From: Ostreococcus lucimarinus
Lineage: Eukaryota
Reading direction: 5' to 3' (one strand)
DNA: 64,000 nt
Assembly: GCA_000092065.1 (NCBI GenBank)
Contig: CP000586.1
The notes under the pieces are model-generated. The model was not told where the DNA came from and made no database searches. It saw only the letters and a program-made list of their open reading frames with translations. How positions within the stretch are numbered: position 1 is the stretch's first letter; the number at the start of each line of letters is the position of its first letter. Below are positions 1,905 through 47,871 of this stretch, one piece after another. A program made the position numbers and the translations under genes.

Positions 1905-1976
1905 CAGTCGGGTGACTTTTTCCCTCCATCTTTATCACCACCGGAATTACACGCGAGGATAATTCCATCGGTTTGT

Positions 1977-21384: not shown

Positions 21385-21389
21385 CGCGC

Positions 21390-21395
<6 letters not shown>

Positions 21396-21429
<34 letters not shown>
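21396..21429. repeat. (CGT)x11 trinucleotide repeat in the SMC4/MT-A70 intergenic region
   Basis: cgtcgtcgtcgtcgtcgtcgtcgtcgtcgtcgtcg. Confidence 0.9.
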
Positions 21430-21430
<1 letters not shown>

Positions 21431-21516
21431 GGTGTGTCATCCGTCGCCCGACCAACGACCGTTCCGTTCCCCTCTGTCGATGGCGCACGTGTCGCGCGGA
21501 ATACGGGGTTTCGTAC

Positions 21517-21526
21517 TTTTTTTTTT
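21517..21526. repeat. T10 homopolymer in the divergent promoter
   Basis: gtacTTTTTTTTTTgaaaattc. This is the only AT-rich patch between SMC4 and MT-A70. Confidence 0.85.
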
Positions 21527-21728
21527 GAAAATTCAAACGCCGTCGACAGGTGCGTCGATCGCGCGGCGCGCGCACTTGGACGCGCGCGCGCGCGGACGAG
21601 GCGACGGACGAGCGACGCGCGGTGCGGTGCGCGAGACGGACGCGCGCGCGAGCGAACGAACGCGGCGGGAACCGCGCTCGAAGACGCGGGAAGACGCGCC
21701 AGCGGTCGAGGCGTCGACAGCGCGCGAC

Positions 21729-23070
21729 GATGGCGAACGAGGACGGCGATGTCGCCGCGGGGAGCCGGCCGAAGCGCAAGGCGAGCGCATCGTTGCGAGC
21801 GCGGACGTCGCGAGGGAAACAAGCGCCGTCGAGCGCGCACTACGTGGGATACGTGCAAGACGACGAGACGCCAGAGATGATTATGAAAAAGTTTGAAGAG
21901 ATGGAACGGATTCGACAAGCCACCAAGGCGCAAGTCGGTGAGGATGGTGATAAGGAGAACAAGGAAGGCGCGACAAACGGTGCGGGTGGAGACGCGGTCG
22001 GGACCAACGGCGACGAGCACGAAGGGTTGGACGAGGAACAGTTGAAGGAGTTGTTCAAAAATACGTCTACGTTTACGGTGAAGGAGGCCGTGATGGATTC
22101 TAACGCGCTTTTCGGTGATATGAGGATCGCGAACGAAGATGGGATGTATTTCTCGGACGATGAAGAGTTGCAAGATGAATTCTGGGAGGCGCTGACCGGT
22201 AAGAAGCGTAGAGGTAAGAAATCCAAGGGGCCGAGAGTGCCGAGAGCGCCGAGAGCGCCGCGCGAACCAAAGGCGGCGCAGTCACACATGATCACCGCGT
22301 ACAATAGCGACCAAGGCTTGTTCTTGCGCAAGAAGAAGTTTGTTGATCCTTTCGAGCCTGTCATCATCAAGGTCCCGGCGCACCCGATTCCAGTGAGCTA
22401 TGGACGAGTAATTCAGCCGTACGAACCAAAATCGGTGCGAGAGGCGAAACTGAAACAAGTTCCCGATTGCGTGCACATGCAAACGAACATCAAGAAGATG
22501 GAATATGAATCGCTCGGTAAGGACTATTTAGGTGTGCTCATGAACCCGCCGTGGGATATTGAAGATTCCCCAGATCGCGGCGACGTGACGTTGGAGGACA
22601 TCGAAGCCATTCCGCTTGAAAAACTCACGCCACTCGGTTTCATCTTTATTTGGGTTGAGAAGGAAAATTTGTCCAAGGTTTGCGACATCATGGACCGAAA
22701 GAACTTTGTCTACGTAGAGAACTTGACGTGGGTACAACTCAAGCCGAACAACACGATCGTTGAGTCCTCTGCGCGCTATCTTGGTCGCTCGCACAGAACA
22801 ATGCTCATCTTCAGACGAGACGTTCGCGACAAGCGCTTCATTGAAGGGAAGAAGATTGAGTTGCGACACCAACGTAACTCGGATGTGACTCTCGATATTG
22901 TGCAGACCACGAAAACTGGTCGACGTGTTGTCCCTGAGCACGTGTACAAGTCCATCGAAACTCTTTTACCGACGGCGTACGAACCTGGAACGCCTGGTAA
23001 GCTCCTCGAATTGTGGGCCGAACCGGGCGCGCGACGCGCGGGTTGGACTTCCGTGGCGGATACTCCTTAG
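21729..23070 (+). CDS. MT-A70 family N6-adenine methyltransferase (NPPW motif IV)
   Basis: ...LGKDYLGVLMNPPWDIEDSPDRGDVTLEDIEAIPLEKLTPLGFIFIWVEKENLSKVCDIMDRKNFVYVENLTWVQLK aligns motif-by-motif with the METTL3/MTA catalytic core ADPPWDI...FLFLWV...IIWVKTN. The N-terminal about 250 aa is acidic/basic low complexity. Confidence 0.7.
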
Positions 23071-31100: not shown

Positions 31101-32329
31101 TCCTGATCCGATTCATCCACTGGCACGTCATCCTGGCCCACGTAAGCTTCACTCTCATCGAGTTCGGACGCAGATTCGTCACTCGGCTGCTCATCGCTCT
31201 CGAAGTCTTCCAAGTCCTCGCCCGACTCCGAAATCGCCGCGCCCGCATTGTCTGAGAGATTCTTGACAGCTCGTCTCGTTCCAATCCTTCCACCCTTAGC
31301 TCGCTTGCGTAACTTTTTCCTGTGTGAAGGTTCCATTTCGGCTTTTTCTCGTTCGACTGGATCCCACTGAAACATCGGTGGAAAAACAGACGGCTGCCAA
31401 AAATCGGTGCTGTGCTCCTGGAGCCAGGGCGGAAGTTTTGTTTCGCTGAGTAAAATCCGCGACTTTGGTTTGCGCTCGATCTTAGACGCCGCAACACTGC
31501 GCAAAATATCAGTTGGATTGAAGCGAGACGCTGAGGACGTCGTCTCCCTGACATGATCGAATGTCGATTGTCCTCGCGTTGAACTTGAAAATGAAATCGT
31601 TTCGTCCGCGTCCTCGTCTTCACCCGGCATCTGAACCTTAAGTCGCGCCTTCGGATCGACGAACACTGTTTGCTTCTCGTATAGGATCAAGTAACGAAAT
31701 TCTCGCAGCAGAGTTCCAACCAGGCGAACCGCGTACTCGTTGTGTTCCCTCGACGTGTTGTTTCGCGCCGTCCGAAACACTCTCGGCGCAAACATCTCAG
31801 ACAACGTACATAACGGTTCATCTTCCTCTATGCTCGCCGTGCATCCACGAGTGACGACGAATCCAAACAGCGTCCGGTGTAAGAGCTCCGTTAACTCCGT
31901 CAAGACCTCCATTCGAGGCTTTGGCACCCGTTCAAGAAGAACTCTGAGAATGTACAGCCTCGACTCGTAGTGCTCCGTCTTGATCGCCTGCACGAACGCC
32001 TCGACGAGCTTCGAGGGCACTAACCCATCTGATAACGCGTCTAAATGTTTGAGCATGATTCGCAACACCAGCGCTGGCTTCGGTCGCCGTCCTCGCGTGT
32101 TCCCTACCGCGAGATACGTCTCCCCCTCGCTCACCGCCTTGTCGCTCAACGCGTCCGCCTCGCTCGCGCGCGTGAACAGCTCCGCCCCGAGCTCCATGCC
32201 GCGATGCTTCAACGATCCCACGCACGCTTTCACCATTCGCAATCGCTCGCCGTCTCGAACCAACGCCGATTCCCTCGCGTCTAACATCTTTTCCCGAGTC
32301 GGTTGGTTTCGGTTTCTCGCGCTCGCCAT
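28163..32329 (-). CDS. Formin (FH1 polyproline + FH2 domain)
   Basis: Long polyproline runs (PPPPPPPPPGFKSS repeated; APPAPPAPPAP). Downstream is FH2-like sequence (...LHWEKL...GTVWEN...LDQLFA...). Start taken at ATG 32329. The ORF is open to 32638 through an Arg-rich low-complexity leader. Confidence 0.8.
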   Translation of the reverse strand: MASARNRNQPTREKMLDARESALVRDGERLRMVKACVGSLKHRGMELGAELFTRASEADALSDKAVSEGETYLAVGNTRGRRPKPALVLRIMLKHLDALSDGLVPSKLVEAFVQAIKTEHYESRLYILRVLLERVPKPRMEVLTELTELLHRTLFGFVVTRGCTASIEEDEPLCTLSEMFAPRVFRTARNNTSREHNEYAVRLVGTLLREFRYLILYEKQTVFVDPKARLKVQMPGEDEDADETISFSSSTRGQSTFDHVRETTSSASRFNPTDILRSVAASKIERKPKSRILLSETKLPPWLQEHSTDFWQPSVFPPMFQWDPVEREKAEMEPSHRKKLRKRAKGGRIGTRRAVKNLSDNAGAAISESGEDLEDFESDEQPSDESASELDESEAYVGQDDVPVDESDQDEVPVIIRRKPAASRGERGAIRGRVHRRTASRADVPTVLASAVHVANDQIHDVIPLIHSTLKAGGKARSPASSSTLQKIRTRLAESTSAQLSHQALLGDKYRDDDDYVDDEYGQDDYLSENDDDAYFDEESEQEHAAFTPQEVVQVAHGDGFSGGDGFSGGDGFSGGDSPLVTVNLPIATPVAVPRVDLTPEQEAYLLALYNDGALREALNNLVQVTGKSDARDESTEGSVSVNEEIETLLKFATLVKTKKLNQIRGLEEVASRNNFTQELIKLMKDIEIADEVDPGTVLKADSKLAKALLGDVSPVSGFAAQMESLQEQASDAPPPPPPPPPSKLSETKAKLDLDHLGRGAKAVVLKALDAPPAPPAPPAPSSKTSPLVAPPPPPPPPPPPPPPPPKASGKVAPPPPPPPPPPGFKSSVSKATVPPAPPPPPAPPGFKRATGVAPPAPPPPPAPPGFKSSSVSAPAPPPPPPPPGFKSSVPAAPPVPPKMGIAAIANAHAWAQKARKKVKMLHWEKLQGGAIGGTVWENANKDELSLNLESLDQLFAIEEAKAKAKAAAKKQKSVTLIDQKRSLNISIQLAGLRMPFDRIKDALLAMDDEVLQSEQLEVISSTVPTSKEITLIMDYKGAKEELATVEQYFMHVMQIPRLEGRVNSLLYKSLASDALLKVTSEYRLLSEASDCLRESTLFVKVLRGVLVVGNHLNTGSYRGSASGFRLDMLLRLKDFKAVDRKTSLLHFVYKELVKTEPGIGNLSTDLAVVKKAAALSIETTSANLGKLQDGLTKVKDEILHAAGVLGEEVHKAFHAKMAPFAETMDEKLKEASELSLGAVESAKRVTEFYGEPYKPDNPTHILRVVSDFLTIFDNVRDSIKAEEAADALKLRLEKAREEQKVLKKKLSPKPKPVRVFDTVDAMHAELISKTKKASPIRSPTGKREPSPSDPTAVSPRARFLAQRGETEKTSPRKKLEDDFGEGDEEKN
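29926..29961. repeat. (GGA)n / (TCC)n repeat encoding the FH1 polyproline tract
   Basis: ggaggaggagga... about 12 units. Confidence 0.85.
30604..30659. repeat. Near-perfect 3 x 21-bp tandem repeat inside the formin CDS (encodes the GGDGFSGGDGFSGGDGFS repeat)
   Basis: ccagaaaaaccgtcaccg repeated three times. Confidence 0.85.
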
Positions 32330-32640
32330 CGCCGGTGATTCCGAGTCGTCGCGTATCGTCGCGCGATCACGTCCGCGACGACGCGCGTCGTCGTCGTCGT
32401 CGTGGTTGTCGCGCCATCGTCGTCGTCGTCGCGCGTCGTCGCGATTCGGTCGCGACGTCCGCGCGCGCGTCTCCCGTCTCCACCTCGCGCGGGCGCGGGT
32501 TCGAGTTGTTCGAGTTCCCCTAGCGATTTCAGCGATTTCGCCCGCGAACCCGCGAACCCGCGCGCACCCGCGAGGCGGACGCCGCGAGGGTCGTTGGCGC
32601 CCCGCCCGACAGGGCGCCGCGCGCGCGACCGAGCGCATCG

Positions 32641-35600
32641 ATGTTCTCGTCGTTCAGCATCACCGGTGCGGCGGCGGAGGTGTACGACGTCGAACTCGCG
32701 TACGAAGACGCGCGTCGCGGGCGACGCGACGGCGAAAAGGCGTCGACGACGACGACGACGACCGAGGTGACGTTCGACTCCAAGGAGGATCCCGAGGAGG
32801 TGATTGATAAACTCGTGAAACAGCGACGAGATCTGCCGTACGAGACGGGATACGAATGCGTCGTCATCCGAGCGCTTTGCTCGGCGTCGAAAGTCGCGAT
32901 ACAGCTCGGGGTGGAGAAGTATCAACCGAGACCGGTGGCGTTGAAGGTGACTTCGAATGGAAAGATGAACGCGGGACAGTCGCACTCGAGCTTGGCGTCG
33001 GTGCTCAAGCACTGTCAGCTCGGCTCGCTGCGGAAGCTGAGCGTGCAAGATGGATTGTTGTCCACGGTTTTGTCTTTACGAGATAAATGGACCTCGGTTC
33101 GAGAGTTGGACATTTCGAACAACGCGTTGGAAACGCTGCCGAAAGAGCTGTTCGCGCGTTTCCCGTACCTGGAGGTTCTTCGTTTGGACGGGAATAAACT
33201 CGCGACTTTGCCCAACTTGAACGCGTTCACGCTTCTCAAAGAGTTGCATGCGAACGGCAACGCGTTGTCAACGCTGCCAATCGACATGGTGGAAGATTTG
33301 GATTTGGAAGTTTTGTCCGTCGAGTTCAACCGCTTGAGCAAGCTGCACGTCAAGTTGAAGGATTTGTCCAAACTGCGCGTGTTGCGGTTACTTGAGAATC
33401 CCATAGAGACGCTGCCCCGGTTGAATAAGACCGCCAATCAAGAGTGCTTATCGCTCGCAAACGTGAATGTTTCGAGGAATGGAGCAACAGGCGGTGTCTC
33501 CGTACAGGTTCGCGAAACGAGCTCGTCTTACTTTTCCAGCATAGTAGGCGGCAAGACAACGTCCAAGGAAAAAGCGTACAACGCTTTCCTGAGCTTGATC
33601 TTTCGTAGCAGTGAATGTCAAAACGCATTACTCGTCGCCGCCGTCGCGGTGATCGCGTCGAAGAGCCGAGAAAACTGCGAAGCCATAGTGCTGACCGAAG
33701 GTGCGAGCGTTCGACCGCTTCTTCACTCTGGGGAAAATTTACATGTGAAACTGACCGTACGTCCGTCCGCACCACAGGAGCCGTGAATCATCTCATAAAT
33801 ATCGTCCATTCGTCGAATAAATCGCTGGTGTACGAGGCATCGCGCGCGTTGGCGCATATTTGCGGCGCACCGAACCTGGCGCGCGCGCTCAATGAAATGC
33901 ACGTCACGGAAGCAGTCGTTAATTTAATTCAGGTGAGTATCCGAATTAATTCCGATATGAATAATTTCGTTCGAATTTCGCGTTAAAAGTTCATATACTA
34001 ATTTACTGACTCTATACGTGCATAGGACTCGAGCGAACTGCGAAATAGATGTGGATTGATTATTTTGAACGGTCTCGTCGGTTCTTCACACGACGTATCC
34101 CGGGTAAGCGTGTTTCACATCGGTTGACGCAAGAATCTAACTGATCCTTTCGTAACGCAGGCATGTTATTCCGACAAATTAATCGGACGCTTGACAGAGT
34201 TCGTGGCGGTGCGTACTTGCGTAAATAATTGCATCGTGAAAGTCTGAATTAATTAAATAATTTCCCTCAGGCGATTGATGAGCATATGCGGCTATTAGCG
34301 CTGAGAACTTTGGGTACTTTCGCTTTCGACGAAACTAATAAACGTGCGATGCTCAAACTGCGCGATCTCCACTCGATTCTCGTCGTATTCGCGCTCCGCC
34401 CGGAATTAAAGGCGGCGAGCGTTGCGGTGAAGAAGGAATCGATCCGAGTATTGGCTATTTTGGGCGAGAACGAGCTCGTGCGCCAGGCCACTGGTGCGCC
34501 TCCCATCACTGGTCGTGGTATACGCATTCTTGCGCTAGATGGTGGTGGTATACGCGGTAGAGCGACGTTGAAGATGTTGAAAAGAATTGAGGTGAGGAAT
34601 TATTTCATTTATTTATTTAGAGCTTGAATTCACGAATTTTTTGTTTCGTCGCGATCAGGAAGGAACTGGTCGTCCGATTCACGAATCATTCGATTTGGTG
34701 TGCGGAACGTCTACTGGTGGCATATTGGTACGAAAACGCCCGTCTAGAGCGCACGAATTAATTATTTCGCCGTGAACAATTATTTTTTACTAACCAACAC
34801 ATTTTGCTCGTAGGCCACGGCGACGTCCATCAAAAAGCTCTCATTGGAGCACTGCGATAAGATTTATGTAAATCTTGGCAGCAAAATCTTCAGTCAAACA
34901 ACGCACAACGAAGAGACCTCTGGATCGAACTCTTGGCTCGGCAGTGTTGGTTCCATGTACACGAGTGGAAAGCAACAACTTCTCGCGACGACGCTCTATA
35001 GCAGCAAGCACAACACCTCGACCTTTGAAACCCTCGTTAGACAAGAGTGCAACCCTGAAGCAGAAGAGCCAACGTGGATAGACACCGCTGCGTCGGGCGG
35101 TCCGAAAGTTTTCTGCGTTTCTACCCAAACGAGTCAAAATCCGGCGCAGCCGTACTTGTTCAGAAATTACACGTATCCGGCTGGCAGTACGAGTGCGTAT
35201 TCCCAGGCAGGTAGTTGCGAATATCTATTGTGGCAGGGTGTCTGTGCATCCGCCGCTGCACCATACTACTTGTATGTTGACGCCTTTGCGATAGAAAACG
35301 AGCGCTGGGTTGATGGAGCCATGACTTGCAACAATCCGGCGATGATGGGTGTCCAGGAAGCTCGACGACTTTGGCCAGACAAGAAAATTGACTGTGTCGT
35401 GTCCCTCGGAAGTGGTAACTTCATCCCCCACGAGAGAGATCCACCCATTTCTCTCGTCGCTTTGGCCAAAGATGTCTTGTTTGACAGCGCTTGCGACACT
35501 GAACGCGTTCATGAAAGCTTGAGTACGCTTTTGCCACTCATACCCGGGGCGCAATATTTCAGGTTCAACCCGGTTGACGAGCGTTGCAAGATAGAAGTCG

Positions 35601-36583
35601 ATGAAACGGATGTTGGTGCACTCCAAGGCTTATTTGACGCTACTGAAGAGTACATTGTGGCAGAGAAGGAGATGTTCGACAAGGTATGCCATTTATTGAG
35701 AGACGTCGACGACACAGATGAGGTCACCGCCAAACTTCTCGACACGGAAATTAGCGGAACGCGCAGTGGTGTTCTAGTTTTGGAAGCGCCCCGTTACGAA
35801 GAGGAACTTTCTGAATGTACTTCTGCCTTGAAGAATTTTTGTGCTTTAAGATCGATATCGATACAGTGCGCAGATTACTCCGCCAATAGACCCATGAATC
35901 CGGGCGAAGCACTGAGCCATCTGAACACGGTGGCGGAGACGTCGACTGCAGCAGTGATTCATTTCAACTGCCACGCCGATTCTGACGGATTGATTCTCAC
36001 TTGGCAGAAAGATGTCACTGCTATTGCTGAGCCTAGCTCGGTCGCTGAACTATTTCTCAGTAGGTCTGGTAGCCCGTATGCGTCAGTCAGCGAACACTGT
36101 GAAGCTGAGGCCCACATTGAGGTGCATGGAATATTGCATACTTTCTCAGGCAAGCACGTGCAAGTGAACGATGTCGGCGAGCGCACGTCGTCATACTTGT
36201 TTAAGCGTACTGTCCCAATGGACTACCTGGACGGATCGACGAGTCGAGAGTTATTTGGTTTATGGCGTGGGAAGATCATCGTTTCTCAAAGTTCACTTCC
36301 ATCCTCACTCGTTGCGGCGTGGCTTGAAGCCGGGGCGAAATGTGTGGTCGCACCGTGCAAGGAAGGCGGCGTCGTTAACGTTGAAAGCGAACAGACAGAC
36401 TTTATGGCTGCATTCTATCACGCACTTTTTGTTGTGGGCGCGGATGCTACTGCGGCGATGAGCGCAGCTGCCATCGTGCAGCCGGCGTGCTCGTATTACC
36501 GTTGTCACGTTCTTGTTCAAGGTGGAATCGTGGCACTTCGTCCTGACGAAGAGTTTGACTATGATTTGGATGCGCACGTATAG
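32641..36583 (+). CDS. Patatin-like phospholipase A, PLA-I-type (LRR + armadillo + patatin). Seven-exon model: 32641..33700, 33778..33932, 34026..34103, 34161..34208, 34271..34591, 34659..34727, 34814..36583
   Basis: Exon1 carries LRRs (LDISNNALETLPKELF...LRLDGNKLATLPNL...LHANGNALSTLP). Middle exons are armadillo-like (AVNHLINIVHSSNKSLVYEASRALAHI...). The patatin signatures ILALDGGGIRG and DLVCGTSTGGIL are split across exons. The catalytic WVDGAMTCNNP lies in the last exon. All introns are GT..AG and phase-consistent. Confidence 0.75.
33933..34813 (+). other. Cluster of five short AT-rich introns (33933..34025, 34104..34160, 34209..34270, 34592..34658, 34728..34813) in a low-GC patch of the PLA-I gene
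   Basis: Each begins GTGAG/GTAAG/GTGCG/GTACG and ends YAG. Removal gives continuous ARM/patatin translation (DSSELRNRCGLIILNG...; ACYSDKLIGRLTEFVA; AIDEHMRLLALRTLG...KRIE; EGTGRPIHESFDLVCGTSTGGIL; ATSIKKLSLEHCDK...). Confidence 0.7.
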
Positions 36584-36616
36584 AAATACTAGACAATAGT
36601 TTTAAAAACTTATAGA

Positions 36617-39433
36617 CTATTCTACTTCGATGTCCCCCAAACTTTCAGCGTACTTTTTCAACTCCTTCTCATTGATGACTTCGACGGACTCGACCCAACC
36701 AACGTACTGAAGAATACTGTAAGTCAACACCTTACCGGCATCTTGGATGATCGCCCAGATGATGACGTAAAGCCAACAATATCCGGACAGCTGCCAGGAA
36801 ATTCCTACCATGCCGTTTCCGAAAGGCCAGTACACCGCTAAAAGAGTCGACGCTCCAGTGGCGATGATGAAGGCGCCGACCAAGATGACACTTGGAGCGC
36901 GCGACCAGAACCAGCCCTTGGTTCTCGAGTTAAATACTGAGAAGTAATCAGAAAGACTGATTTTCAAGTAAATAAGCGTCTGGATCTCTCCGTATGACAT
37001 CGCTGGGAGACCAAGTTGAGACCAAGTGCTCGTTGGATCAACCGATGATAACGCTGAGCTCAGCAGAAGTACGGATGATGCCAAGGCTGTCAAGCCTATA
37101 GCGGAAGATACGATGTACAGGATATTCAAATCCCATTTTTCTGGTTGCATGGAAGCGTGCACGTTATCGTACGCCACAGAAATAATGGTTCCATCGTTCA
37201 ATATCGTAATCGTAACAAGTGCGATGACCGGAATAGCAAAGTGCTGCGGCCAAGACTCATTGAACTGACTAGGATGATAGAATATACACGAGATGAAGAA
37301 AAAGAACAACAACTGCTCTGTACACGCCACCCGATAAATCACAAAGTTTTTCATTCTTTGGAAGATTTTGCGGCTCGTGACAATCGCCGTAACGATGGTG
37401 GACAGACCGGGTTCGGTGAGAACAATATCAGCCGCAGCTTGCGCCGCGCTCGTAGCACCTTGTACAGCAATTCCGACATCCGCCCGCTTTAACGCAGGCG
37501 CATCATTCACACCGTCTCCAGTCATGCCGACGAGCATCCCTTGCTGTCGCAAAGCTTCTACAATCAGATATTTGTGCTCTGGGAATACTTGTGCGAATCC
37601 GTCCGCCTTTCGACACAGTTCACCATAATCTCGTCCTAGCGTGGTCGCCTTCTCTAGTTCCTCCGCTTTCATGAGAGGAAGTTTTTCAGTGCCAAGCACG
37701 TTTGTGCCCATACCCAACGTTCTGCAAGTTTCAACCGCAATGGCGCGGTGATCACCGGTGATCATTTTCACACTGACACCAAATTCGTTGGCGCAGTCAA
37801 TGGTATGCTTTGTGTCCGGGCGAGGAGGATCCAAAAAGGTCAAAATACCCAAAAATTCGAACTCGTTGCTATTGTTCTTTGTTTTCGCCACCGCGAGCGA
37901 ACGAATACCGCGATGAGCTAACTCGAGAACGTGCTTCTCGACCTCTTGACCGATCGTGGACTTGTTTGCACTCAACTCTAAAACCACGTGCGGGGCACCT
38001 TTCGTCACCTTGAACACGTTACCGTTCTTCTCCTTGATCGTGCTTTCTGTGCGCTTGATGGCTGGATCAAACGGAGTGTGATCGGTCTGTTCGTAATCGT
38101 TCAATGCGCTGATGTTAACAGCGTTTAATACCAAAGTATCGAGGGCGTCCTTTGGCGGCTCCCACCATTTCGCCGCCAACGCCGCGAGTTTGAGGACTTC
38201 TTCACGCGAAACACCCGGAACAAAGATTGGTAAATCCTTCTGAAGAACCATCTTGTTCAGAGTGAGCGTTCCTGTCTTGTCTGAGCACAAGATTGTCATA
38301 CCCGCCAACTCTTCAACAGAAGAAAGCCGCGCTACGATGGCCTTCTCCGCCGCAAGTTCATGACAACCTAAAGCCAACGTCGTCGTACAAACCACTCGCA
38401 AAGCGATAGGAATAGATGCAACAAGAAGGACTACGTTGAACGCTAAGACCTCCCAGAAATCAACCCCGATAGAAAGTAAATAAATGAACACCAGAGTACA
38501 GATGAAGAAACCGACAGCGACCAAGATGTATGTAATCTCTCTGAGTACTTTTTCAAAGTGCCCGAGCTCATCGACTCCTTGAACTAAGTCCGCGGTTTTC
38601 CCAAAGAACGTCTGGCTACCCGTCGCTGTGACGGTAGCTTCGATTTCTCCGCGCGTCACGGTGGAACCCATTTTTGCTTCCGCACCTGGAAACATTGCGA
38701 CCGGCAACGATTCCCCCGTGAGCGCGGATTGATCCACTTGAATAGGTTTTCCATCTCTAATCGTGCAATCCGCCGGGATCGCACCCCCCGCGCCGAGGAC
38801 GACGATGTCCCCGGGTACTAACTTTGTGGCGTTGATGATGTACACGCGTCCTTCGCGTTTCACCGTCGCCTCCGGTTTCAGCGACTCTCTCAACGCCGCG
38901 ATGGCGTCACCGGCCTTCATTTCCTCTATAAACCCCACGAGCACGTTCAACAATTGCAGCACCACCAACACGATGACGTCCACGAGACCATCCATGGACT
39001 GATGAATGTACGTCTCGATGGATTCGATGAGGATGGCTGCCCAGATCATCATCGGCATCGGTTGTACGAACTCCAACGCGAGTTTCAACCACATGCTATC
39101 CTCCTTCACCTTGAGCTGATTAGGTCCGAATAACTCCAACCTACGCGCCGCCTCGTCCTCGTTCAAACCGCTCTCGCCGGTGTTGAGCAAACTCTCGCGC
39201 TCGACGCCCATGTAGAAGCGCGCGTCGTCCGTCGTCTCCGTCCCATACGCCGCGCTGTCCTCCTTTCCTCGCCCGAGAAGCGGTGTCGAGCGAAGATCAG
39301 CGTCTTCATCTTCGCCTCCGCCGCGCGACATCGTCGCGTCGTCGCCGATCGACGCGCGACGCCCTCGCCTTCGGCGCCCTAGAATGGGGTGTTGGCGCTC
39401 GCGTCGGGCGTCGTCGATGTTAGCTTTATTCAA
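36617..39433 (-). CDS. P3A-type plasma-membrane H+-ATPase
   Basis: TGESLPV, CSDKTGTLTLNKM, MITGD, GDGVNDAPALKRADVGIAV and TM topology typical of PMA/AHA proton pumps. Alternative start at ATG 39331. Confidence 0.85.
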   Translation of the reverse strand: MNKANIDDARRERQHPILGRRRRGRRASIGDDATMSRGGGEDEDADLRSTPLLGRGKEDSAAYGTETTDDARFYMGVERESLLNTGESGLNEDEAARRLELFGPNQLKVKEDSMWLKLALEFVQPMPMMIWAAILIESIETYIHQSMDGLVDVIVLVVLQLLNVLVGFIEEMKAGDAIAALRESLKPEATVKREGRVYIINATKLVPGDIVVLGAGGAIPADCTIRDGKPIQVDQSALTGESLPVAMFPGAEAKMGSTVTRGEIEATVTATGSQTFFGKTADLVQGVDELGHFEKVLREITYILVAVGFFICTLVFIYLLSIGVDFWEVLAFNVVLLVASIPIALRVVCTTTLALGCHELAAEKAIVARLSSVEELAGMTILCSDKTGTLTLNKMVLQKDLPIFVPGVSREEVLKLAALAAKWWEPPKDALDTLVLNAVNISALNDYEQTDHTPFDPAIKRTESTIKEKNGNVFKVTKGAPHVVLELSANKSTIGQEVEKHVLELAHRGIRSLAVAKTKNNSNEFEFLGILTFLDPPRPDTKHTIDCANEFGVSVKMITGDHRAIAVETCRTLGMGTNVLGTEKLPLMKAEELEKATTLGRDYGELCRKADGFAQVFPEHKYLIVEALRQQGMLVGMTGDGVNDAPALKRADVGIAVQGATSAAQAAADIVLTEPGLSTIVTAIVTSRKIFQRMKNFVIYRVACTEQLLFFFFISCIFYHPSQFNESWPQHFAIPVIALVTITILNDGTIISVAYDNVHASMQPEKWDLNILYIVSSAIGLTALASSVLLLSSALSSVDPTSTWSQLGLPAMSYGEIQTLIYLKISLSDYFSVFNSRTKGWFWSRAPSVILVGAFIIATGASTLLAVYWPFGNGMVGISWQLSGYCWLYVIIWAIIQDAGKVLTYSILQYVGWVESVEVINEKELKKYAESLGDIEVE

Positions 39434-39570
39434 CTTTATTAGTCATCGCAACGCGTCGAATACGCGTTTATCGATTTATCGCGCGCGGCGACGGTGCGTC
39501 TTTCAACACTAAAGGCGAGCGAGCGGCGCGCGGCGAGCCGCAGACGCGCGCGCGCGACGTCGAGCGCGGC

Positions 39571-40659
39571 ATGAGCGCGGACGTCGAGCGCATCGGATTG
39601 GTGCGCGGCGAACGGGTGCGGCGAACGGACGCGGAAAACCACGGATGGCGCGCGACCAAGCTCGCGTTGGGCGCGATCGCCGTCCTCGCGGCGGTGTGCG
39701 TCGGCGTTGGAGGACGCCGTGGACGCGCGATCGGGGCCGCGTTCGGGGGACTGGCGCGCTTGGGAGTGGGGGCGGATAGCGCGGATAGCGCGGAAAGCTG
39801 GACGCACGAGGACTGGCGCGTGGTGAGCTTCGTGGACGCAGAGTACGAGGACATTGGCAAGCGCTGGTATCACCGGTTGTCAAACTTGGGGTACAAAACG
39901 CATTATCTCGTGGCTTTGGACGATGAGGTGTACGACAAACTAGAAAAGGCAAAGCTCAGGGTGTTGCGCGCGCCCGGCTTTACGTTAGAAAAGGGAGGGG
40001 ATCTGTCTGACTTTTGGCGGTTCCGGTTGACGTACTTGGCGGATGAAATCAAACGCGGGCACAACGTGCTGTTGTCGGATGTGGATGTCATATTCGCGCA
40101 TCACTACGATCCTGTCGTGATTTTCAACAAAGCTGGAGACGAGGAAGTAGATATTTATCACTCACTTGGCGCTGGTTGGCCGCATTCGGCAAAGAAGCAG
40201 TGGGGATTCTCCATCTGCATGGGCTTTTCAGCCTTCAGAGCGACTCGCGCAACTGAGCAAATTCTGGAAGCCGCGGTGAAGGTCTGCGACCACGAAGCAC
40301 ACTGTGACGACCAGGTGGTGATGAATGAACTGTACATGAAATATCTCCAAATGTCTTGGACGACGAATTTAGCGCACGGCGAGCGTAAGGGCATATCTCG
40401 CAATACGATGATTCCGCTCGTCGTTAAGACGTTGTCGAATCTCGTCCCTAGAATTGATCTTAAGGATATGACTCCTATCAAGCCGTCGTCCAAGAATGTG
40501 CAGTGCTTCGGGCACACCCATCATGTCGATGGTGGTCACTGGGCCGTGGCGCCGATCATCGAAAAAGACGGTAGAGCCAAGGTTGACGTGTGGGACCAGT
40601 TGCACGACGAATGTTTCCCGGCAACGATTAGCGCTCTAGGCGCGCAGTGGACGCATTGA
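39571..40659 (+). CDS. Type-II membrane glycosyltransferase, nucleotide-diphospho-sugar transferase (GT77-like) family
   Basis: N-terminal signal anchor LALGAIAVLAAVCVGVG. Then YLVALDDEVYDKL...LTYLADEIKRGHNVLLSDVDVIF with a DxD-type motif. Confidence 0.45.
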   Translation: MSADVERIGLVRGERVRRTDAENHGWRATKLALGAIAVLAAVCVGVGGRRGRAIGAAFGGLARLGVGADSADSAESWTHEDWRVVSFVDAEYEDIGKRWYHRLSNLGYKTHYLVALDDEVYDKLEKAKLRVLRAPGFTLEKGGDLSDFWRFRLTYLADEIKRGHNVLLSDVDVIFAHHYDPVVIFNKAGDEEVDIYHSLGAGWPHSAKKQWGFSICMGFSAFRATRATEQILEAAVKVCDHEAHCDDQVVMNELYMKYLQMSWTTNLAHGERKGISRNTMIPLVVKTLSNLVPRIDLKDMTPIKPSSKNVQCFGHTHHVDGGHWAVAPIIEKDGRAKVDVWDQLHDECFPATISALGAQWTH

Positions 40660-44155: not shown

Positions 44156-44522
44156 GCCTTCGAGGTATCCGGCGTTGTGATGCTGCGCGCGACGATAAAG
44201 TCATCGGGACGGTCAGTCTTTGCTCGGCTGCGCGCGCGCGACTTTCGACGGCTCGCGGCATCAGCGCACCTTGCGTCGCTCGACGTCGGCGTCGGAAACG
44301 TGCTGCACGCAGTCGTCTTCGCGTGAGTCGTCGCCCGCATCGTCGTCGTCAGACGCCGCCCACGCGTCCACGCACGGCATGGCGCGAGGCGACGTCTGGG
44401 GACCCGCGGCGAGAGTGCGCGAGAGCGCGCAGCGCGTTTTGATTTTACGCGCGGGCGCGAATAGGACGTGAAACGACCGATTAAACGCTCGAAATGTTTT
44501 GCAAAAAATACGCTCTAATAAA

Positions 44523-46004
44523 CTAAACGAGAAGAGGAGAGTCTAAGACGGCGTACCCCGCCGCGACGCCGCCTTCGTCGGAAGTCGCCGCCTTCGTCCG
44601 GAGCAAACTCCCACCGTGTTTATTGATCACGATCTCGTCGCCTACGCGGAGATAACTACCGTAAATACCTAACTCGGACAGTGTTTCGATTTCGAGCACC
44701 TTACCGGCGCGAACGGTGAGCGTTTGATGAGATGGAGGGAGAATGCGTTGCATGAGAATGAACGCGCCCAAGTCTCCGCCGAGTTCAAGTCGTTTGCGCA
44801 AATCGTCCGAATACAAATTATTTCCACCACCCTCACGCTGAGGCTTTAAGACGTAGCCCGCTGGATTCGCGAGTGCGAGTTTAATCGCCTCGGTGCCTTC
44901 GTCGCCGTCTAAGGAATACAAATCTGCAAAGACACGTCGCATGTCCGCGGCGCGTTCCGGCATGAACGATTCGAGCACGCCCGCTTCTGCGAGCTTTTGT
45001 TGCACCTTCTTCGATCCCGCCAAGTGCATTGCCACCGAAGGGCTCTTCAAAGCGTTCGATTGTTCGATTAACAACCGTGCTGACCATTCGCCACTGGTCG
45101 GATAGTCCGACGGGGTGTATCCGGCTCGAAAGTACACCAAGCCGATGTCGTCGCCTCGAAACGTGAGCGTTCCGTCGCGCAACGCGCCCTCGGCGTTTAC
45201 TTCGGCTAAAGTCGCTCTGACGGTGTGAATTCCGTGCGTTTCGAATATATAATGCGAGATGTGCCGCTGATCGAACATATTACGCTCGTTCGGCTGAACC
45301 ACCATCATGATTTTCCCTTTACTCCCCATCGCTTTCCATCCCGCCGCGAGGACGTCGCCCGCGCTCGAGAGCGCGTCGTTCTGTGGCATCGCGTCGAAAT
45401 CCACCACTTCTCCAGGTTTCGCCGACCACGCCGCTAAGTGTCTATGCATCGCGCTCACCTTCGATCCGAGCGCCATGAACGACGTGCTCACCGTGTTCAC
45501 CTCGACTTGCAAAGGCAACCCGCTCGGCGCGTCGAGCATGTAATCGCTTCGCAACACGCCAACCTCCGCCTTCTGTCTCCCCTCTTGCCCGCCGCTCCGT
45601 TCGTACACGTCCCACAGCGCGGCCGTGAATGCATCGTTCTTAATCGCCCCCCGCAGCGTTTCCCTCAGGAATCCATCGTCCCTCGACACTCCGTCGTACA
45701 GCTCCGCGAACGCCGGCGACGTCGCCTCGGCGAGCTCGTACGCGCTCCTCGGAAACGTCGTCGGCGCGCACGACACCGGCGCGTGCGTGAACGTCCCCGC
45801 TTCGTCTCCTCCGATCATCAATCCGTGTTCGACGCAGTACGCCACCGCTTCCACCGCGCGCGCGCTCGTCGCGCCCTCGCGCACGAGCCCGCGGTTTCCC
45901 GCCCCGGTCGTCGTCGCCGTCGCTCGCGTCGTCGTCGTCCCGCGTCGTCGTCCCATCGTCGCGCGCGTCGTCGCTCGCGTCGTCGTCGCGCGCGTCGTCG
46001 CCAT
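44523..46004 (-). CDS. GSH2: Eukaryotic glutathione synthetase
   Basis: ...GYVLKPQREGGGNNLYSDD... (the VLKPQREGGGNN motif), ILMQRILP, RSDYMLD. Confidence 0.85.
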   Translation of the reverse strand: MATTRATTTRATTRATMGRRRGTTTTRATATTTGAGNRGLVREGATSARAVEAVAYCVEHGLMIGGDEAGTFTHAPVSCAPTTFPRSAYELAEATSPAFAELYDGVSRDDGFLRETLRGAIKNDAFTAALWDVYERSGGQEGRQKAEVGVLRSDYMLDAPSGLPLQVEVNTVSTSFMALGSKVSAMHRHLAAWSAKPGEVVDFDAMPQNDALSSAGDVLAAGWKAMGSKGKIMMVVQPNERNMFDQRHISHYIFETHGIHTVRATLAEVNAEGALRDGTLTFRGDDIGLVYFRAGYTPSDYPTSGEWSARLLIEQSNALKSPSVAMHLAGSKKVQQKLAEAGVLESFMPERAADMRRVFADLYSLDGDEGTEAIKLALANPAGYVLKPQREGGGNNLYSDDLRKRLELGGDLGAFILMQRILPPSHQTLTVRAGKVLEIETLSELGIYGSYLRVGDEIVINKHGGSLLRTKAATSDEGGVAAGYAVLDSPLLV

Positions 46005-46137
46005 CCGCGTCCACCGCGCGCGCCGTCGCGCGTCGACGTGCGTCGCCGGGAGTCTTCGACGCGGTCGAGGACGCCGAACGCGAAAACACGCGCGCGGAGA
46101 CTCGCCGGTTCGGAAAAATTGGATCCGTTATAGTGCT

Positions 46138-46193
46138 ATCTTGGGTCCGCCCTCAGTGGTCGTCCATCTTGGGTCCGCCCTCAGTGGTCGTCC
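46138..46193. repeat. 2 x 28-bp perfect tandem repeat in the GSH2/CPAP intergenic region
   Basis: atcttgggtccgccctcagtggtcgtcc occurs twice in direct succession. Confidence 0.9.
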
Positions 46194-46245
46194 GCCGGTT
46201 CGGCGACGCGTTTGAACGCGCGCCACATCGCGCGCGACGACGGCC

Positions 46246-47871
46246 ATGAGCCTGGACGACGTCCCGATCAACGGCGATCGAACGAGGACGTGGGAGGAGA
46301 TCATCGCGAGCGCGCTGGAGGGGGACGGCGGGACGACGACGACGACGACGACGACGCGCGACGACGACGATGCGGATTGTTTAAAGTCAACGCCGACGAG
46401 GAGTTACTTGAAAAAGGGGACGCGAGCGATGCGGACGTCGCCGTTGACGCCGAAAACGGCGGGAACGACGCCGAATGTGACGAACGCGCGATCGAAGGTG
46501 GGGCGCGCGCGAGGGATGAGCCCGAGGGGGGGGGGGGAAAGAGGAACGGGGACGACGACGGCGGAACGACGAAGAGGAACGACGACGACGACGAGTCCGA
46601 GTCCGAAAATCGCGTTCGGGAGGCGCGAAGAGTCGCGCTCACCGCGACGAGCAGGTGGTGGGTTGTTTGACCACGACGTGAACGTTCAACCGTCGACGAT
46701 GGAGGCGTGGAGAGAACATAAAGCGAGGAGCGCGAGGGAGACGAAGGAATTCGAGGCGCTCGAGTCGCGGTTGTGGAGCGAGACGAAGGCAAAGGAAGAG
46801 GCCGAGAGGCGATCGTTCGATGACGTGAGATCGGGTACGGTCGTTCGTGACTTTGTCTCTTCGTCGACTGCGGAGGAAGAGGAAGCGCGCGCTGCCTTTG
46901 AGCGCGCCAAGGCGAGTCTGGCGAGCGAAAGACAACGATTCGCCGACGAACGGGCGGCGTGGGAAGCGAAAAGAGACGACGCCGAGGAAGCGTTCAAGGC
47001 TGAGTGTGAGGACGTGCGCAGACAGTTCAAGCGCGAAAAGGCGGCGTTGATGCGCGAGGCGGAGGCACACTTAGCACTACCCACGAAACAGGAGCGCAAT
47101 GAAGCCAAGTTTCTTCGCGAACAGCTCGAGCGCAACGAGGCTGAATTCAAAGCCGAGCAACAACGAGCCAAGCTCACGGTGGATCGCCTGCGGCAACAAA
47201 TCGTCGATCTGACGAACGAAATTTCGGAACTTCGCATGGAGAAAAGGTTGCTGGAAGAGAAGTGCGAGGTATCGAATCGTTTGCAAGCGAAGGCTTTGTC
47301 GACGACGCCGCCTCGTCGAGTCGAGCCGGTCGTCGAGATCGCTTCGCCCGCGAGTTCGCGGCCTGGGATGACGATTTCGTCGGAACCGAGTCCATCTAGG
47401 CGTGTATATGCGGATGATACGACGTACTTTGCACCTCGTGCGCTCAGTGTGCGCGATCCGCTCCCGAGCGTGAGCGATAAAGTTCGATTACGAAGCACCG
47501 CGGGTCTCGAACGCGAGATTCCGCACGAGGATGGTCGGGTCGAGCGCGTCTTTGCTGACGGTCGTCGCGTCGTATTTTTCGCAAACGGCACGATTAAGGA
47601 AATCGATGGTCATGAAACGACTATTTTCTTCACCAACGGTGATATCAAACGCACTCACCAAAACGGTATCATCGAGTATTACTACTTCGACGTCGAGACG
47701 TGGCACACCACGCACCCAACCGGCGTTGAGCTCTACCATTTCGTTCAAACCAATCAAGTCGAACTTCACGCCGCGGGCGACGAGCCCAAGGATAAGGAAA
47801 TCTTATTTCCAGACGGAACCCTTCGTCGCGTTTACTCGAACGGCTTCGAGGAAGACGTGGCCGGATTGTAA
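46246..47871 (+). CDS. CPAP/SAS-4 (CENPJ)-like protein: coiled-coil plus C-terminal TCP10/G-box domain
   Basis: C-terminus VFADGRRVVFFANGTIKEIDGHETTIFFTNGDIKRTHQNGIIEYYYF...ILFPDGTLRRVYSNG shows the repeated F-x-NG-x-K/R-x(5)-DG G-box pattern. The middle is E/R/K-rich coiled coil. Confidence 0.6.
   Translation: MSLDDVPINGDRTRTWEEIIASALEGDGGTTTTTTTTRDDDDADCLKSTPTRSYLKKGTRAMRTSPLTPKTAGTTPNVTNARSKVGRARGMSPRGGGERGTGTTTAERRRGTTTTTSPSPKIAFGRREESRSPRRAGGGLFDHDVNVQPSTMEAWREHKARSARETKEFEALESRLWSETKAKEEAERRSFDDVRSGTVVRDFVSSSTAEEEEARAAFERAKASLASERQRFADERAAWEAKRDDAEEAFKAECEDVRRQFKREKAALMREAEAHLALPTKQERNEAKFLREQLERNEAEFKAEQQRAKLTVDRLRQQIVDLTNEISELRMEKRLLEEKCEVSNRLQAKALSTTPPRRVEPVVEIASPASSRPGMTISSEPSPSRRVYADDTTYFAPRALSVRDPLPSVSDKVRLRSTAGLEREIPHEDGRVERVFADGRRVVFFANGTIKEIDGHETTIFFTNGDIKRTHQNGIIEYYYFDVETWHTTHPTGVELYHFVQTNQVELHAAGDEPKDKEILFPDGTLRRVYSNGFEEDVAGL

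What the first reader, a model, noticed from the sequence alone, without database searches (positions are those of the whole stretch)
33933..34813. Five short AT-rich introns sharing a GAATTAATT-type motif, confined to a low-GC island inside the PLA-I gene
Almost every other gene in the window is a single uninterrupted GC-rich ORF. Piezo (7.2 kb) and BEACH (7.4 kb) have no introns at all. This 0.9-kb stretch of the LRR-ARM-patatin gene instead holds five GT..AG introns of 57-93 nt that are strikingly AT-rich. Four carry closely related motifs: ccGAATTAATTccg, ctGAATTAATTaaataatt, cacGAATTttttg and cacGAATTAATTATTTcg. The exons between them are also lower in GC than the flanks. This looks like a local compositional and architectural outlier. 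Possible explanations are introns of common origin (introner-like gain), a horizontally or recombinationally acquired segment, or a region under different mutational pressure, akin to the low-GC intron-rich outlier regions reported for Mamiellales.
Basis: seen in the sequence. Interest (0 to 1): 0.6.

Follow-up and report, generated by a model that had tools for sequence, protein, structure and literature searches.

The report
Ancient AT-rich intron cluster with conserved motif
Five short AT-rich introns in one phospholipase gene of the tiny green alga Ostreococcus are real, have kept the same positions across the whole Ostreococcus/Bathycoccus family, and carry a conserved AATTAATT-type element that probably helps the cell recognise these atypical introns.

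Summary
The window is Ostreococcus lucimarinus, on a normal chromosome and not the big outlier chromosome. The motif strings are also correct. A sixth, GC-rich canonical intron (33701-33777) lies just upstream.

These are not recent introner insertions and not an acquired segment. All five sit at identical phase-0 positions in 7 Ostreococcus-like and 4 Bathycoccus-like lineages. They are absent from 7 Micromonas-like and other high-GC lineages, and they match no land-plant PLA-I intron position.

AATTAATT occurs 24 times in 2.6 kb of these introns and twice in about 124 kb of surrounding DNA. Its position relative to the splice sites is conserved, and it changes less than neighbouring intron bases in a population about 5% diverged. 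Exon composition is normal, so the "low-GC island" is the introns alone.

Best reading: this is an old cluster of introns resembling those of the outlier chromosome's low-GC BOC1 region, lying outside that chromosome. Their AU-rich elements likely stand in for the strict GTGCG/ACTGAC signals of ordinary Ostreococcus introns. The splicing role is inferred, not shown.

The parts
32641..36583 (+). PLA-I-like gene (LRR + ARM-like region + patatin phospholipase). It has 7 exons and encodes 1,166 aa.
   Evidence: The spliced CDS is open and 3,501 nt long. Pfam finds LRR_8 and Patatin. It is 66% identical over its full length to O. tauri XP_022839185.1. The start is shared with O. tauri and with the transcript-derived protein P0119.
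33701..33777 (+). Intron I0: canonical Ostreococcus-type intron, phase 1, 77 nt, GC 0.545, GTGCGAG ... AACTGACC.
   Evidence: It is present in all 7 Ostreococcus-like lineages and absent from the Bathycoccus-like ones. It is spliced out in transcript contig L093 of a sister lineage.
33933..34025 (+). Intron A: 93 nt, phase 0, GC 0.32, 5' splice site GTGAGT. GAATTAATT lies at 33943-33951 inside a 20-nt imperfect palindrome (33938-33957). GAATAATTT lies at 33959-33967 and the branch site TACTGAC at 34004-34010.
   Evidence: The position is conserved in 11 Bathycoccaceae lineages. The orthologous intron is removed in L093.
34104..34160 (+). Intron B: 57 nt, phase 0, GC 0.46, 5' splice site GTAAGC, branch region CTAACTGAT at 34137-34145. 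It has no AATT motif in the Ostreococcus-like lineages.
   Evidence: The orthologous intron is removed in L093.
34209..34270 (+). Intron C: 62 nt, phase 0, GC 0.34. It has no CTRAC branch site. GAATTAATTAAATAATTT lies at 34246-34263, starting 25 nt from the 3' end, and is the likely branch region (TTAAT) plus U-rich tract.
   Evidence: No CTRAC is found in 7 of 7 Ostreococcus-like lineages, while TTAAT lies 9-29 nt from the 3' end in 7 of 7. Interior conservation has mean z 3.3. The intron is retained in transcript contig L093.
34592..34658 (+). Intron D: 67 nt, phase 0, GC 0.31. GTGAG is followed directly by GAATTATTTCATTTATTTATTT (34597-34618). A second element, GAATTCACGAATTTTTTG, lies at 34626-34643. 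There is no CTRAC branch site.
   Evidence: Alignment z is 7.4 against O. tauri. It shows 0 of 67 changes against a sister population about 5% diverged, compared with 25 of 287 at exon third positions, p=0.004.
34728..34813 (+). Intron E: 86 nt, phase 0, GC 0.40, 5' splice site GTACGA. GAATTAATTATTT lies at 34755-34767 (+28 from the 5' splice site), CAATTATTTTTT at 34777-34788, and the branch site TACTAAC at 34788-34794.
   Evidence: The motif lies at +27 to +31 in 5 of 7 Ostreococcus-like lineages. Interior conservation has mean z 3.4.

Best explanation
The five introns are ordinary U2-type spliceosomal introns of the AT-rich, weak-signal kind that Mamiellales otherwise concentrate in the low-GC BOC1 region of the big outlier chromosome. 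Here they sit as a tight, all-phase-0 cluster in the PLA-I orthologue on a normal chromosome. They arose after the split from streptophytes and no later than the common ancestor of Ostreococcus and Bathycoccus, and their positions have been kept ever since.

They lack the strict GTGCG(TG) 5' splice site of ordinary Ostreococcus introns, and most also lack the ACTGAC branch site (introns C and D have no CTRAC-type site at all). Their recognition is therefore proposed to depend on AU-richness and on linear, unstructured AU-rich elements: GAAUUAAUU, GAAUUAUUU and UUAUUUAUUU. Just downstream of the 5' splice site (introns A, D and E), these would act as U/A-rich splicing enhancers of the kind bound by TIA-1/Nam8/RBP45-type proteins that recruit U1 snRNP. 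Near the 3' end of intron C, and in the second copy in intron D, UUAAU would supply a degenerate yUnAy branch site followed by a U-rich tract.

Shown here: the introns, their age, the motif enrichment, its conserved positions and its reduced substitution rate. Inferred: that the element works at the RNA level and in splicing.
For: Intron reality. The reading frame is restored only by removing all six introns, and each gives an in-frame stop if retained. The annotated O. tauri gene has the same six introns, with internal exon lengths 155, 78, 48, 321 and 69 nt. A transcript-derived contig from a sister lineage (L093, run ERR3587150) has I0, A and B removed.

Age. A-E are at identical positions and phase in 7 Ostreococcus-like and 4 Bathycoccus-like lineages. 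They are absent from 7 high-GC Micromonas-like or other lineages, where the ORF is uninterrupted. None of the 17 Dendrobium PLA-I intron positions coincides with them.

Intron class. Canonical introns in the same window have GC 0.55-0.73 and GTGCG...ACTGAC signals. This matches Irimia & Roy 2008, where 87% of confirmed non-chromosome-2 introns contain ACTGAC and chromosome-2 introns have weak signals. BOC1 introns are described as short and AT-rich, occurring in large numbers per gene.

Motif. AATTAATT gives 24 hits in 2,607 nt of A-E introns from the 7 Ostreococcus-like lineages. The other ~124 kb gives 2 hits, and 24 kb of equally AT-rich flanks gives 2. Each of the five lineages tested by dinucleotide shuffling has p<=0.0005.

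Position. The motif lies at +5/+6 in D (5 of 7 lineages), +27 to +31 in E (5 of 7), within about 13-36 nt of the 3' end in C (7 of 7; at 24-26 nt in five) and +5/+11 in A (4 of 7).

Constraint. Interior alignment z is 3.3-3.4 for C, D and E, against 0.6 for canonical I0 and 0.76 for non-orthologous pairs. Four-fold degenerate sites are only 0.33-0.40 identical. At about 5% divergence, motif bases changed at 2 of 82 sites against 26 of 238 other interior sites (p=0.011 and 0.007). Intron D changed at 0 of 67 (p=0.004).

RNA-level hints. The extended motifs are biased to the sense strand: GAATTATTT 7:0, TTATTTATTT 8:0, ATTTATTT 11:0. There is no stable fold, with z about 0 to +1. The motif fills the branch-site window exactly in the introns that lack CTRAC.

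Known mechanism. RBP45d, a homologue of Nam8 (the TIA-1 family), acts through intronic U-rich elements in 5' splice-site choice in Arabidopsis (PMC9813592 and its preprint 10.1101/2022.08.12.503727; PMC2766253).
Against: There is no functional or binding data, and no RNA-seq from O. lucimarinus itself was available. Junctions D and E rest on frame logic, the O. tauri annotation and conservation.

The core AATTAATT (and GAATTAATTC) is a DNA palindrome, so a DNA-level reading is not excluded. Part of the sense-strand bias follows simply from T exceeding A in these introns (0.36 against 0.27).

Published work found no conserved motif in BOC1 introns. The element may therefore be specific to this gene rather than a class-wide splicing signal. 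I could not sample BOC1 introns to test this.

Intron B has no motif in Ostreococcus-like lineages, and the Bathycoccus-like lineages carry the exact 8-mer only once each. The single transcript contig retains intron C, which could mean inefficient or regulated splicing rather than enhanced splicing.
Confidence: 0.55

Rival explanations
1. DNA-level element. The palindromic (G)AATTAATT(C) sites form an intragenic cluster of binding sites for a dimeric or AT-hook/homeodomain-type DNA-binding protein. This could be an enhancer, a chromatin boundary or a scaffold-attachment-like region regulating the PLA-I gene or its neighbours. On this view the introns are merely the place where such AT-rich DNA can be tolerated.
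For: The core is a perfect palindrome, and in intron A it sits inside a 20-nt imperfect palindrome. The sites are extremely locus-specific, with 24 hits in the cluster against 2 in about 124 kb. A few copies fall in adjacent exon sequence: 5 hits in about 4 kb of internal exons or exon ends.
Against: Motif positions are fixed relative to the splice sites of each intron, not relative to each other. The extended forms are strongly biased to the sense strand. The exon hits coincide with conserved KLI and NLIQ codons, and exon codon use is otherwise normal. Promoters in this genome are GC-rich, not AT-rich.
Confidence: 0.17
2. Ancient introner-like burst. The five introns descend from one mobile intron-generating element that inserted several times into this gene in the Bathycoccaceae ancestor. 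The shared motif would be what remains of the element. This concerns origin and is compatible with the best explanation for present function.
For: There are five introns within 520 nt of CDS, all phase 0, all flanked by G|G, and all short and AT-rich. They are absent from Micromonas-like orthologues and from land-plant positions. Short similarities link introns A/C and D/E: 19-27 nt at 78-79% identity. Mamiellales are known to host introner elements.
Against: No other copy exists in the 64-kb window or in the flanks of about 90 related loci. Non-orthologous intron pairs are barely more similar than shuffles, with z 0.76. Known Micromonas introner elements are GC-rich, avoid low-GC regions and sit at positions not shared between strains, whereas these positions are shared family-wide. 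A single cDNA-mediated loss in the Micromonas lineage explains the distribution equally well.
Confidence: 0.15
3. No function. The motif would be a by-product of AT-biased mutation plus replication slippage of an (AATT)n/(ATTT)n microsatellite in introns that merely need to be AT-rich.
For: Several instances are short tandem arrays, such as (AATT)4 in L005/L022 intron C and (ATTT)3 in intron D. AT-richness alone is the proposed recognition cue for BOC1 introns.
Against: Enrichment is 40- to 100-fold over dinucleotide-preserving shuffles, and the motif is absent from 24 kb of equally AT-rich flanking DNA. The same positions are kept across lineages whose four-fold degenerate sites are near saturation. 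Motif bases and the whole of intron D have a reduced substitution rate at shallow divergence.
Confidence: 0.08
4. A horizontally or recombinationally acquired segment, or a local BOC-like mutational regime affecting the whole 0.9-kb stretch.
For: The only support is the local dip in GC, 0.39-0.46 in 200-nt windows.
Against: The exons are colinear and orthologous with O. tauri, Bathycoccus-like, Micromonas-like and plant PLA-I genes. Exon GC3 and codon use are normal. Flanking gene order (formin, PLA-I, P-type ATPase) is conserved out to the Bathycoccus-like lineages. The O. tauri orthologue is on chromosome 6.
Confidence: 0.02

Closest known systems
BOC1 introns of Mamiellales (small AT-rich introns of the low-GC region of the big outlier chromosome: chromosome 2 in Ostreococcus, per Derelle 2006 as cited in later papers; Moreau 2012 PMC3491373; Verhelst 2013 PMC3879977)
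   Same: Short and AT-rich relative to the flanking exons, with several to a gene. The 5' splice sites are of the GTRNG type rather than GTGCGTG. Two of the five have no recognisable ACTGAC branch site. Positions are more deeply conserved than that of the neighbouring canonical intron. Published work reports 73% against 47% positional conservation for BOC1 versus canonical introns in Micromonas.
   Different: They are not in the BOC1 region. The locus is on O. tauri chromosome 6 and a normal O. lucimarinus chromosome, among intron-poor, colinear genes. Two are longer than the 75-nt limit used to define the class, and one is above 43% GC. Three keep good CTRAC branch sites. They carry a conserved sequence element, whereas BOC1 introns are reported to have none.
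Canonical (non-chromosome-2) Ostreococcus introns (Irimia & Roy 2008, PMC2483917)
   Same: Same spliceosome, GT-AG boundaries, and a branch-to-AG distance of about 15-25 nt where a branch site is visible. Intron I0 of the same gene is a textbook example.
   Different: Canonical introns have GTGCGTG and (G)ACTGAC(G). In this window they are GC-rich, usually single, and near the gene's 5' end. Introns A-E are AT-rich and mid-gene, come five in a row, and mostly lack these signals.
Introner elements of Micromonas (Worden 2009; Verhelst 2013, PMC3879977)
   Same: Lineage-specific introns in a mamiellophycean alga that share sequence with one another.
   Different: Introner elements are repeat families with many near-identical copies. 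They sit at positions not shared between strains and favour high-GC regions. Introns A-E are single-copy, share only a 9-10-nt motif, are AT-rich, and keep positions that are conserved family-wide.
U/A-rich intronic elements of plant introns and TIA-1/Nam8/RBP45-dependent 5' splice-site selection (PMC9813592; PMC2766253)
   Same: U/A-rich sequence immediately downstream of a non-consensus 5' splice site (intron D at +5, intron A at +5/+11). The elements are unstructured, and the extended forms are biased to the sense strand.
   Different: Those elements are loosely U-rich. Here a specific palindromic core, AAUUAAUU, recurs. No binding protein has been tested in Ostreococcus.

Membership tests
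U2-type spliceosomal GT-AG intron | GT...AG boundaries whose removal restores a continuous reading frame colinear with homologues | tested here: met
   All six introns are needed for an open 1,166-aa frame that is colinear with O. tauri and plant PLA-I.
U2-type spliceosomal GT-AG intron | Removal from transcripts | tested here: inconclusive
   Transcript-derived contig L093 from a sister Ostreococcus lineage lacks I0, A and B but retains C. D and E are supported only by the O. tauri annotation and conservation. No O. lucimarinus RNA-seq was available.
U2-type spliceosomal GT-AG intron | Branch site (CTRAY/yUnAy) 10-50 nt upstream of the 3' splice site | tested here: met
   CTRAC is present in A, B and E of the window. 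C has only TTAAT. D has no CTRAC, CTRAT or TTAAT match in the window, though relatives have TTAAT or CTAAT. The actual branch points were not mapped.
Canonical Ostreococcus non-chromosome-2 intron | GTGCGTG-type 5' splice site and ACTGAC branch motif (87% of confirmed introns; PMC2483917) | tested here: not met
   The 5' splice sites are GTGAGT, GTAAGC, GTGCGT, GTGAGG and GTACGA. ACTGAC occurs only in A, and C and D have no CTRAC in 7 of 7 lineages. Intron I0 does meet both criteria.
BOC1 intron (Verhelst 2013 definition) | Length below 75 nt | tested here: inconclusive
   B (57), C (62) and D (67) meet it. A (93) and E (86) do not.
BOC1 intron (Verhelst 2013 definition) | GC below 43% | tested here: met
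   A 0.32, C 0.34, D 0.31 and E 0.40 meet it. B, at 0.456, is slightly above.
BOC1 intron (Verhelst 2013 definition) | Located in the low-GC BOC1 region of the big outlier chromosome | tested here: not met
   The orthologue is on O. tauri contig CAID01000006.2 (chromosome 6). The window is O. lucimarinus, on an 823,818-bp record. The neighbours are intron-poor and colinear, and exon GC3 is normal.
Introner element / repeat intron | Many similar copies elsewhere in the genome | tested here: inconclusive
   No second copy was found in the 64-kb window or in the flanks of related loci. The whole genome could not be searched.
Introner element / repeat intron | Novel positions not shared with related strains or species | tested here: not met
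   The positions are shared by 11 Bathycoccaceae lineages.
U12-type (minor) intron | /RTATCCTT 5' splice site and TCCTTAAC branch site | tested here: not met
   No intron begins with RTATCCTT. The GTATCC at +5 of intron A is out of frame and is not conserved in O. tauri.
Intron-hosted structured RNA (snoRNA and similar) | Match to a known RNA family, or a fold more stable than shuffled sequence | tested here: not met
   No Rfam match at E<=1. MFE z-scores range from -0.8 to +1.8.

The most novel reading that the evidence does not exclude
The GAAUUAAUU/GAAUUAUUU/UUAUUUAUUU elements may be the cis-signal of a second, AU-rich-dependent mode of intron recognition in Mamiellales, the same mode that services the hundreds of weak-signal BOC1 introns. 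If so, this five-intron cassette on a normal chromosome is a compact, conserved and experimentally tractable example. It would show that the two intron classes are separated by cis-elements and their binding proteins, not by chromosomal location.
Probability: 0.2. Interest if true: 0.65.

Novelty: new variant of a known kind. Interest (0 to 1): 0.45.

Why it matters
Ostreococcus has long been noted as a natural experiment (Irimia & Roy 2008). One genome and apparently one spliceosome handle two very different intron populations: strict-signal introns genome-wide, and weak-signal AT-rich introns confined to half of chromosome 2. One proposed explanation was regional, invoking locally higher spliceosome concentration.

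A cluster of chromosome-2-like introns that has survived across the Ostreococcus/Bathycoccus family on an ordinary chromosome, next to a canonical intron in the same gene, argues that recognition is encoded in cis. It also offers a specific, conserved and selectively constrained element to test, and O. tauri can be transformed. On a practical level, gene callers split this gene in metagenomes. My spliced 1,166-aa product is not present as an exact sequence in the public protein collection.

Tried and rejected
(1) A purely ORF-based scan for other introns was too noisy, because GC-rich DNA leaves long open stretches in many frames. I replaced it with a signal-based scan and with orthology to O. 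tauri.
(2) Known RNA families were searched over 33500-35000, with no hit at E<=1.
(3) Stable RNA structure in the introns: none.
(4) Repeat or introner family: blastn-short of all six introns against the window gave only self-hits and chance matches of 12 nt or less. The repeat finder gave only 19-27-nt partial similarities.
(5) Low-GC exons or unusual codon use: rejected.
(6) Ancestral introns shared with land plants: none of the six positions matches any of the 17 Dendrobium PLA-I introns.
(7) The low-GC stretch at 1842-2078 was checked as a possible second AT-rich intron region. It is intergenic and carries no motif.
(8) The apparent break in the Piezo ORF at 8534-8693 is simply the stop codon followed by the next gene.
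(9) Poly(A)-signal idea: 3' ends in this window carry TGTAA-like signals, and by eye none occurs in introns A-E. I did not pursue this further.
(11) I could not obtain any BOC1 (chromosome 2) sequence, so whether the motif is general to BOC1 introns remains untested.
Full report
IDENTITY AND GENE MODEL

The window is a compact green-algal nuclear region. The ORF at 39571-40659 is identical to XP_001418187.1 of Ostreococcus lucimarinus CCE9901, and the longest record carrying it is 823,818 bp. Pfam confirms the neighbouring genes as Piezo, BEACH, a formin and a P-type ATPase, all long uninterrupted ORFs.

The gene in question runs from 32641 to 36583 on the plus strand. Removing six GT-AG introns gives one open 3,501-nt CDS encoding a 1,166-aa LRR + patatin protein. 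This protein is 66% identical over its full length to the annotated O. tauri protein XP_022839185.1, and about 35% identical to land-plant PLA-I proteins.

CHECK OF THE OBSERVATION

- A: 33933-34025, 93 nt, GC 0.32
- B: 34104-34160, 57 nt, GC 0.46
- C: 34209-34270, 62 nt, GC 0.34
- D: 34592-34658, 67 nt, GC 0.31
- E: 34728-34813, 86 nt, GC 0.40

All are phase 0, and each contains an in-frame stop if retained. The four quoted motif strings are correct.

GAATTAATT occurs nowhere else in the 64 kb, giving 3 sites plus a palindromic overlap against 0.41 expected. Within the introns, AATTAATT is seen 3 times against 0.06 expected from dinucleotide shuffles.

Three details need correcting.
- A sixth intron lies just upstream (I0, 33701-33777, phase 1, GC 0.545, GTGCGAG...AACTGACC).
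- The exons between the introns are not low in GC. GC3 is 0.547 there, 0.537 in the 3' exon and 0.712 in the 5' exon, which is a 5'-to-3' gradient. TTA codon use is also normal.
- Other genes do have candidate introns, but of the GC-rich canonical kind and at their 5' ends: 538-851, 15755-15861, 21041-21156 and 44183-44269.

So the "island" consists of the five introns themselves.

THE INTRONS ARE OLD

The O. tauri orthologue lies on contig CAID01000006.2, chromosome 6. It keeps the same gene order of formin, PLA-I and ATPase. It has six introns at the same positions and phases, with internal exons of 155, 78, 48, 321 and 69 nt and intron lengths of 84, 93, 58, 62, 66 and 96 nt.

I used the last exon as a probe and ran a metagenome scan. 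Together these recovered loci that cluster into 7 Ostreococcus-like lineages, 4 Bathycoccus-like lineages (GC 0.40-0.46), and 7 high-GC Micromonas-like or other lineages.

A protein-to-genome spliced aligner that I wrote and validated on the window placed introns A-E at identical phase-0 positions in all 11 Ostreococcus- and Bathycoccus-like lineages. These positions follow query residues 405, 431, 447, 554 and 577. Intron I0 occurs only in the Ostreococcus-like lineages.

In the Micromonas-like and other high-GC lineages, the coding sequence runs straight through all six positions. A land-plant PLA-I gene from Dendrobium has 17 introns, and none coincides with the six.

The introns therefore arose after the split from streptophytes and before the Ostreococcus/Bathycoccus ancestor. 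The alternative is an earlier gain in Mamiellales followed by a single cDNA-type loss in the Micromonas lineage. Either way, recent introner gain, horizontal acquisition and a local mutational regime can all be set aside.

TRANSCRIPT EVIDENCE

One Logan contig provides transcript evidence (L093, run ERR3587150, 1,435 nt, from the lineage represented by L022). It is colinear with exons 1-4. I0, A and B have been removed, and intron C is retained up to the contig end. This shows directly that the orthologous junctions are used. It also hints that C is removed slowly.

WHICH KIND OF INTRON

Published work describes two intron populations in Mamiellales. Canonical introns carry GTGCGTG and (G)ACTGAC(G), and 87% of confirmed non-chromosome-2 introns in O. 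lucimarinus contain ACTGAC. The low-GC BOC1 region of the outlier chromosome holds numerous short AT-rich introns with weak signals and no reported motif.

In this window, I0 and the Yae1-gene intron are textbook canonical. Introns A-E resemble the BOC1 kind in composition, size, number per gene and 5' splice site. Introns C and D have no CTRAC in any of the 7 Ostreococcus-like lineages. The five nevertheless lie on a normal chromosome, so they fail the location criterion for BOC1 membership.

THE MOTIF IS REAL, SPECIFIC AND CONSTRAINED

Across the 7 Ostreococcus-like lineages, AATTAATT occurs 24 times in 2,607 nt of A-E introns. It occurs twice in the remaining ~124 kb, and one of those two is in I0 of the same gene. 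It also occurs twice in 24 kb of equally AT-rich flanking DNA. Each of the five lineages tested by dinucleotide shuffling gave p<=0.0005.

Related recurrent words are GAATTATTT and TTATTTATTT.

Positions are kept relative to the splice sites:
- +5/+6 in D (5 of 7 Ostreococcus-like lineages, and GAATAATTT at +5 in 2 of 4 Bathycoccus-like)
- +27 to +31 in E (5 of 7)
- within about 13-36 nt of the 3' end in C (7 of 7; at 24-26 nt in five)
- +5/+11 in A (4 of 7)

Orthologous intron interiors align far better than shuffled versions for C, D and E, with mean z of 3.3-3.4 and up to 7.4. The corresponding values are 0.6 for canonical I0, 0.5 for B, and 0.76 for non-orthologous pairs. Four-fold degenerate sites in the same genes are only 0.33-0.40 identical, against 0.27 expected at random.

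Constraint also shows at shallow divergence. Against a sister population about 95% identical (L043, L017), motif bases changed at 2 of 82 sites and other interior intron bases at 26 of 238 (Fisher p=0.011 and 0.007). Intron D changed at 0 of 67 sites, against 25 of 287 exon third positions (p=0.004).

HOW IT PROBABLY WORKS (INFERENCE)

Several results point to an RNA-level, sense-strand role tied to the splice sites:
- The elements are unstructured.
- They match no known RNA family.
- Their extended forms are biased to the sense strand, at 7:0, 8:0 and 11:0.

In intron C, and in the second copy in D, the element occupies the normal branch-site window of introns that have no CTRAC. TTAAT fits the yUnAy branch consensus. 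In A, D and E the element follows a non-canonical 5' splice site. This is the arrangement used by TIA-1/Nam8/RBP45-type proteins to recruit U1 snRNP through intronic U-rich elements in plants and animals (PMC9813592, PMC2766253).

I therefore favour AU-rich recognition elements that compensate for the missing strict signals. This function has not been demonstrated.

A DNA-level role for the palindromic core remains possible, with a probability of about 0.17. An ancient common origin of the five introns is compatible with the data but cannot be tested with them.

NOVELTY

AT-rich weak-signal introns in Mamiellales are known. What appears to be new is a deeply conserved cluster of them outside the outlier chromosome that carries a specific, selectively constrained sequence element. 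I class this as a new variant of a known kind, of moderate interest.

The main limits are threefold. I had no BOC1 sequence to test whether the element is class-wide. I had no RNA-seq for O. lucimarinus itself. There is no functional assay.

Noticed in passing
window 32300-32800, 39500-39800, 15000-17000, 21000-22000, 45000-47000, 61000-63000 and others: Every gene 5' end or divergent promoter is a sharp 65-73% GC peak. Gene 3' ends are 33-38% GC islands. Within PLA-I, GC3 falls from 0.86 to about 0.5 along the CDS, and the same gradient is seen in O. tauri.
   Followed up: partly
window 538-851 (+), 15755-15861 (-), 21041-21156 (-), 44183-44269 (-): Candidate canonical introns (GTGCG...ACTGAC, GC 0.61-0.73) lie at the 5' ends of four other genes, including one just upstream of the Piezo ORF. 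Only the Yae1-domain gene intron (44183-44269) is supported by an annotated O. tauri orthologue.
   Followed up: partly
window 36581-36619: The PLA-I stop codon and the stop codon of the convergent P-type ATPase gene are only 33 nt apart, so their 3' UTRs must overlap.
   Followed up: no
window 1878-1907: A short tandem heptamer, (CTTTCAG)x4, lies in an intergenic or 3' UTR stretch.
   Followed up: no
L093 1378-1435: A transcript-derived contig from a sister Ostreococcus lineage has introns I0, A and B spliced out but retains intron C. It ends inside the (AATT)n run of that intron. This suggests slow or regulated removal of the intron that has no canonical branch site.
   Followed up: partly
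L071, about 1,900-2,500 (query residue 374): The lowest-GC Bathycoccus-like lineage (GC 0.40) has an extra 69-nt, 20% GC, phase-1 intron that is not seen in the other lineages.
   Followed up: no
protein P0117 (lineage of L005/L022), intron D: In this lineage intron D is 66 nt with no in-frame stop, so a prokaryotic gene caller read straight through it. Retention there would insert 22 residues in frame just before the patatin GTSTG motif.
   Followed up: no
L022, L042, L040, L008/L032, L039: Marine metagenomes contain at least five further Ostreococcus-like PLA-I lineages, 68-75% identical in protein to O. lucimarinus. Their local GC of about 50% is clearly lower than the roughly 56% seen at this locus in O. 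lucimarinus and O. tauri. I did not determine their taxonomic identity.
   Followed up: no
window 32641-36583: The exact 1,166-aa spliced product is not present in the 15-billion-sequence public protein collection. Metagenome gene callers split the gene into fragments of 381, about 100 and 542 aa. The reference model for this O. lucimarinus gene may therefore be missing or different.
   Followed up: partly
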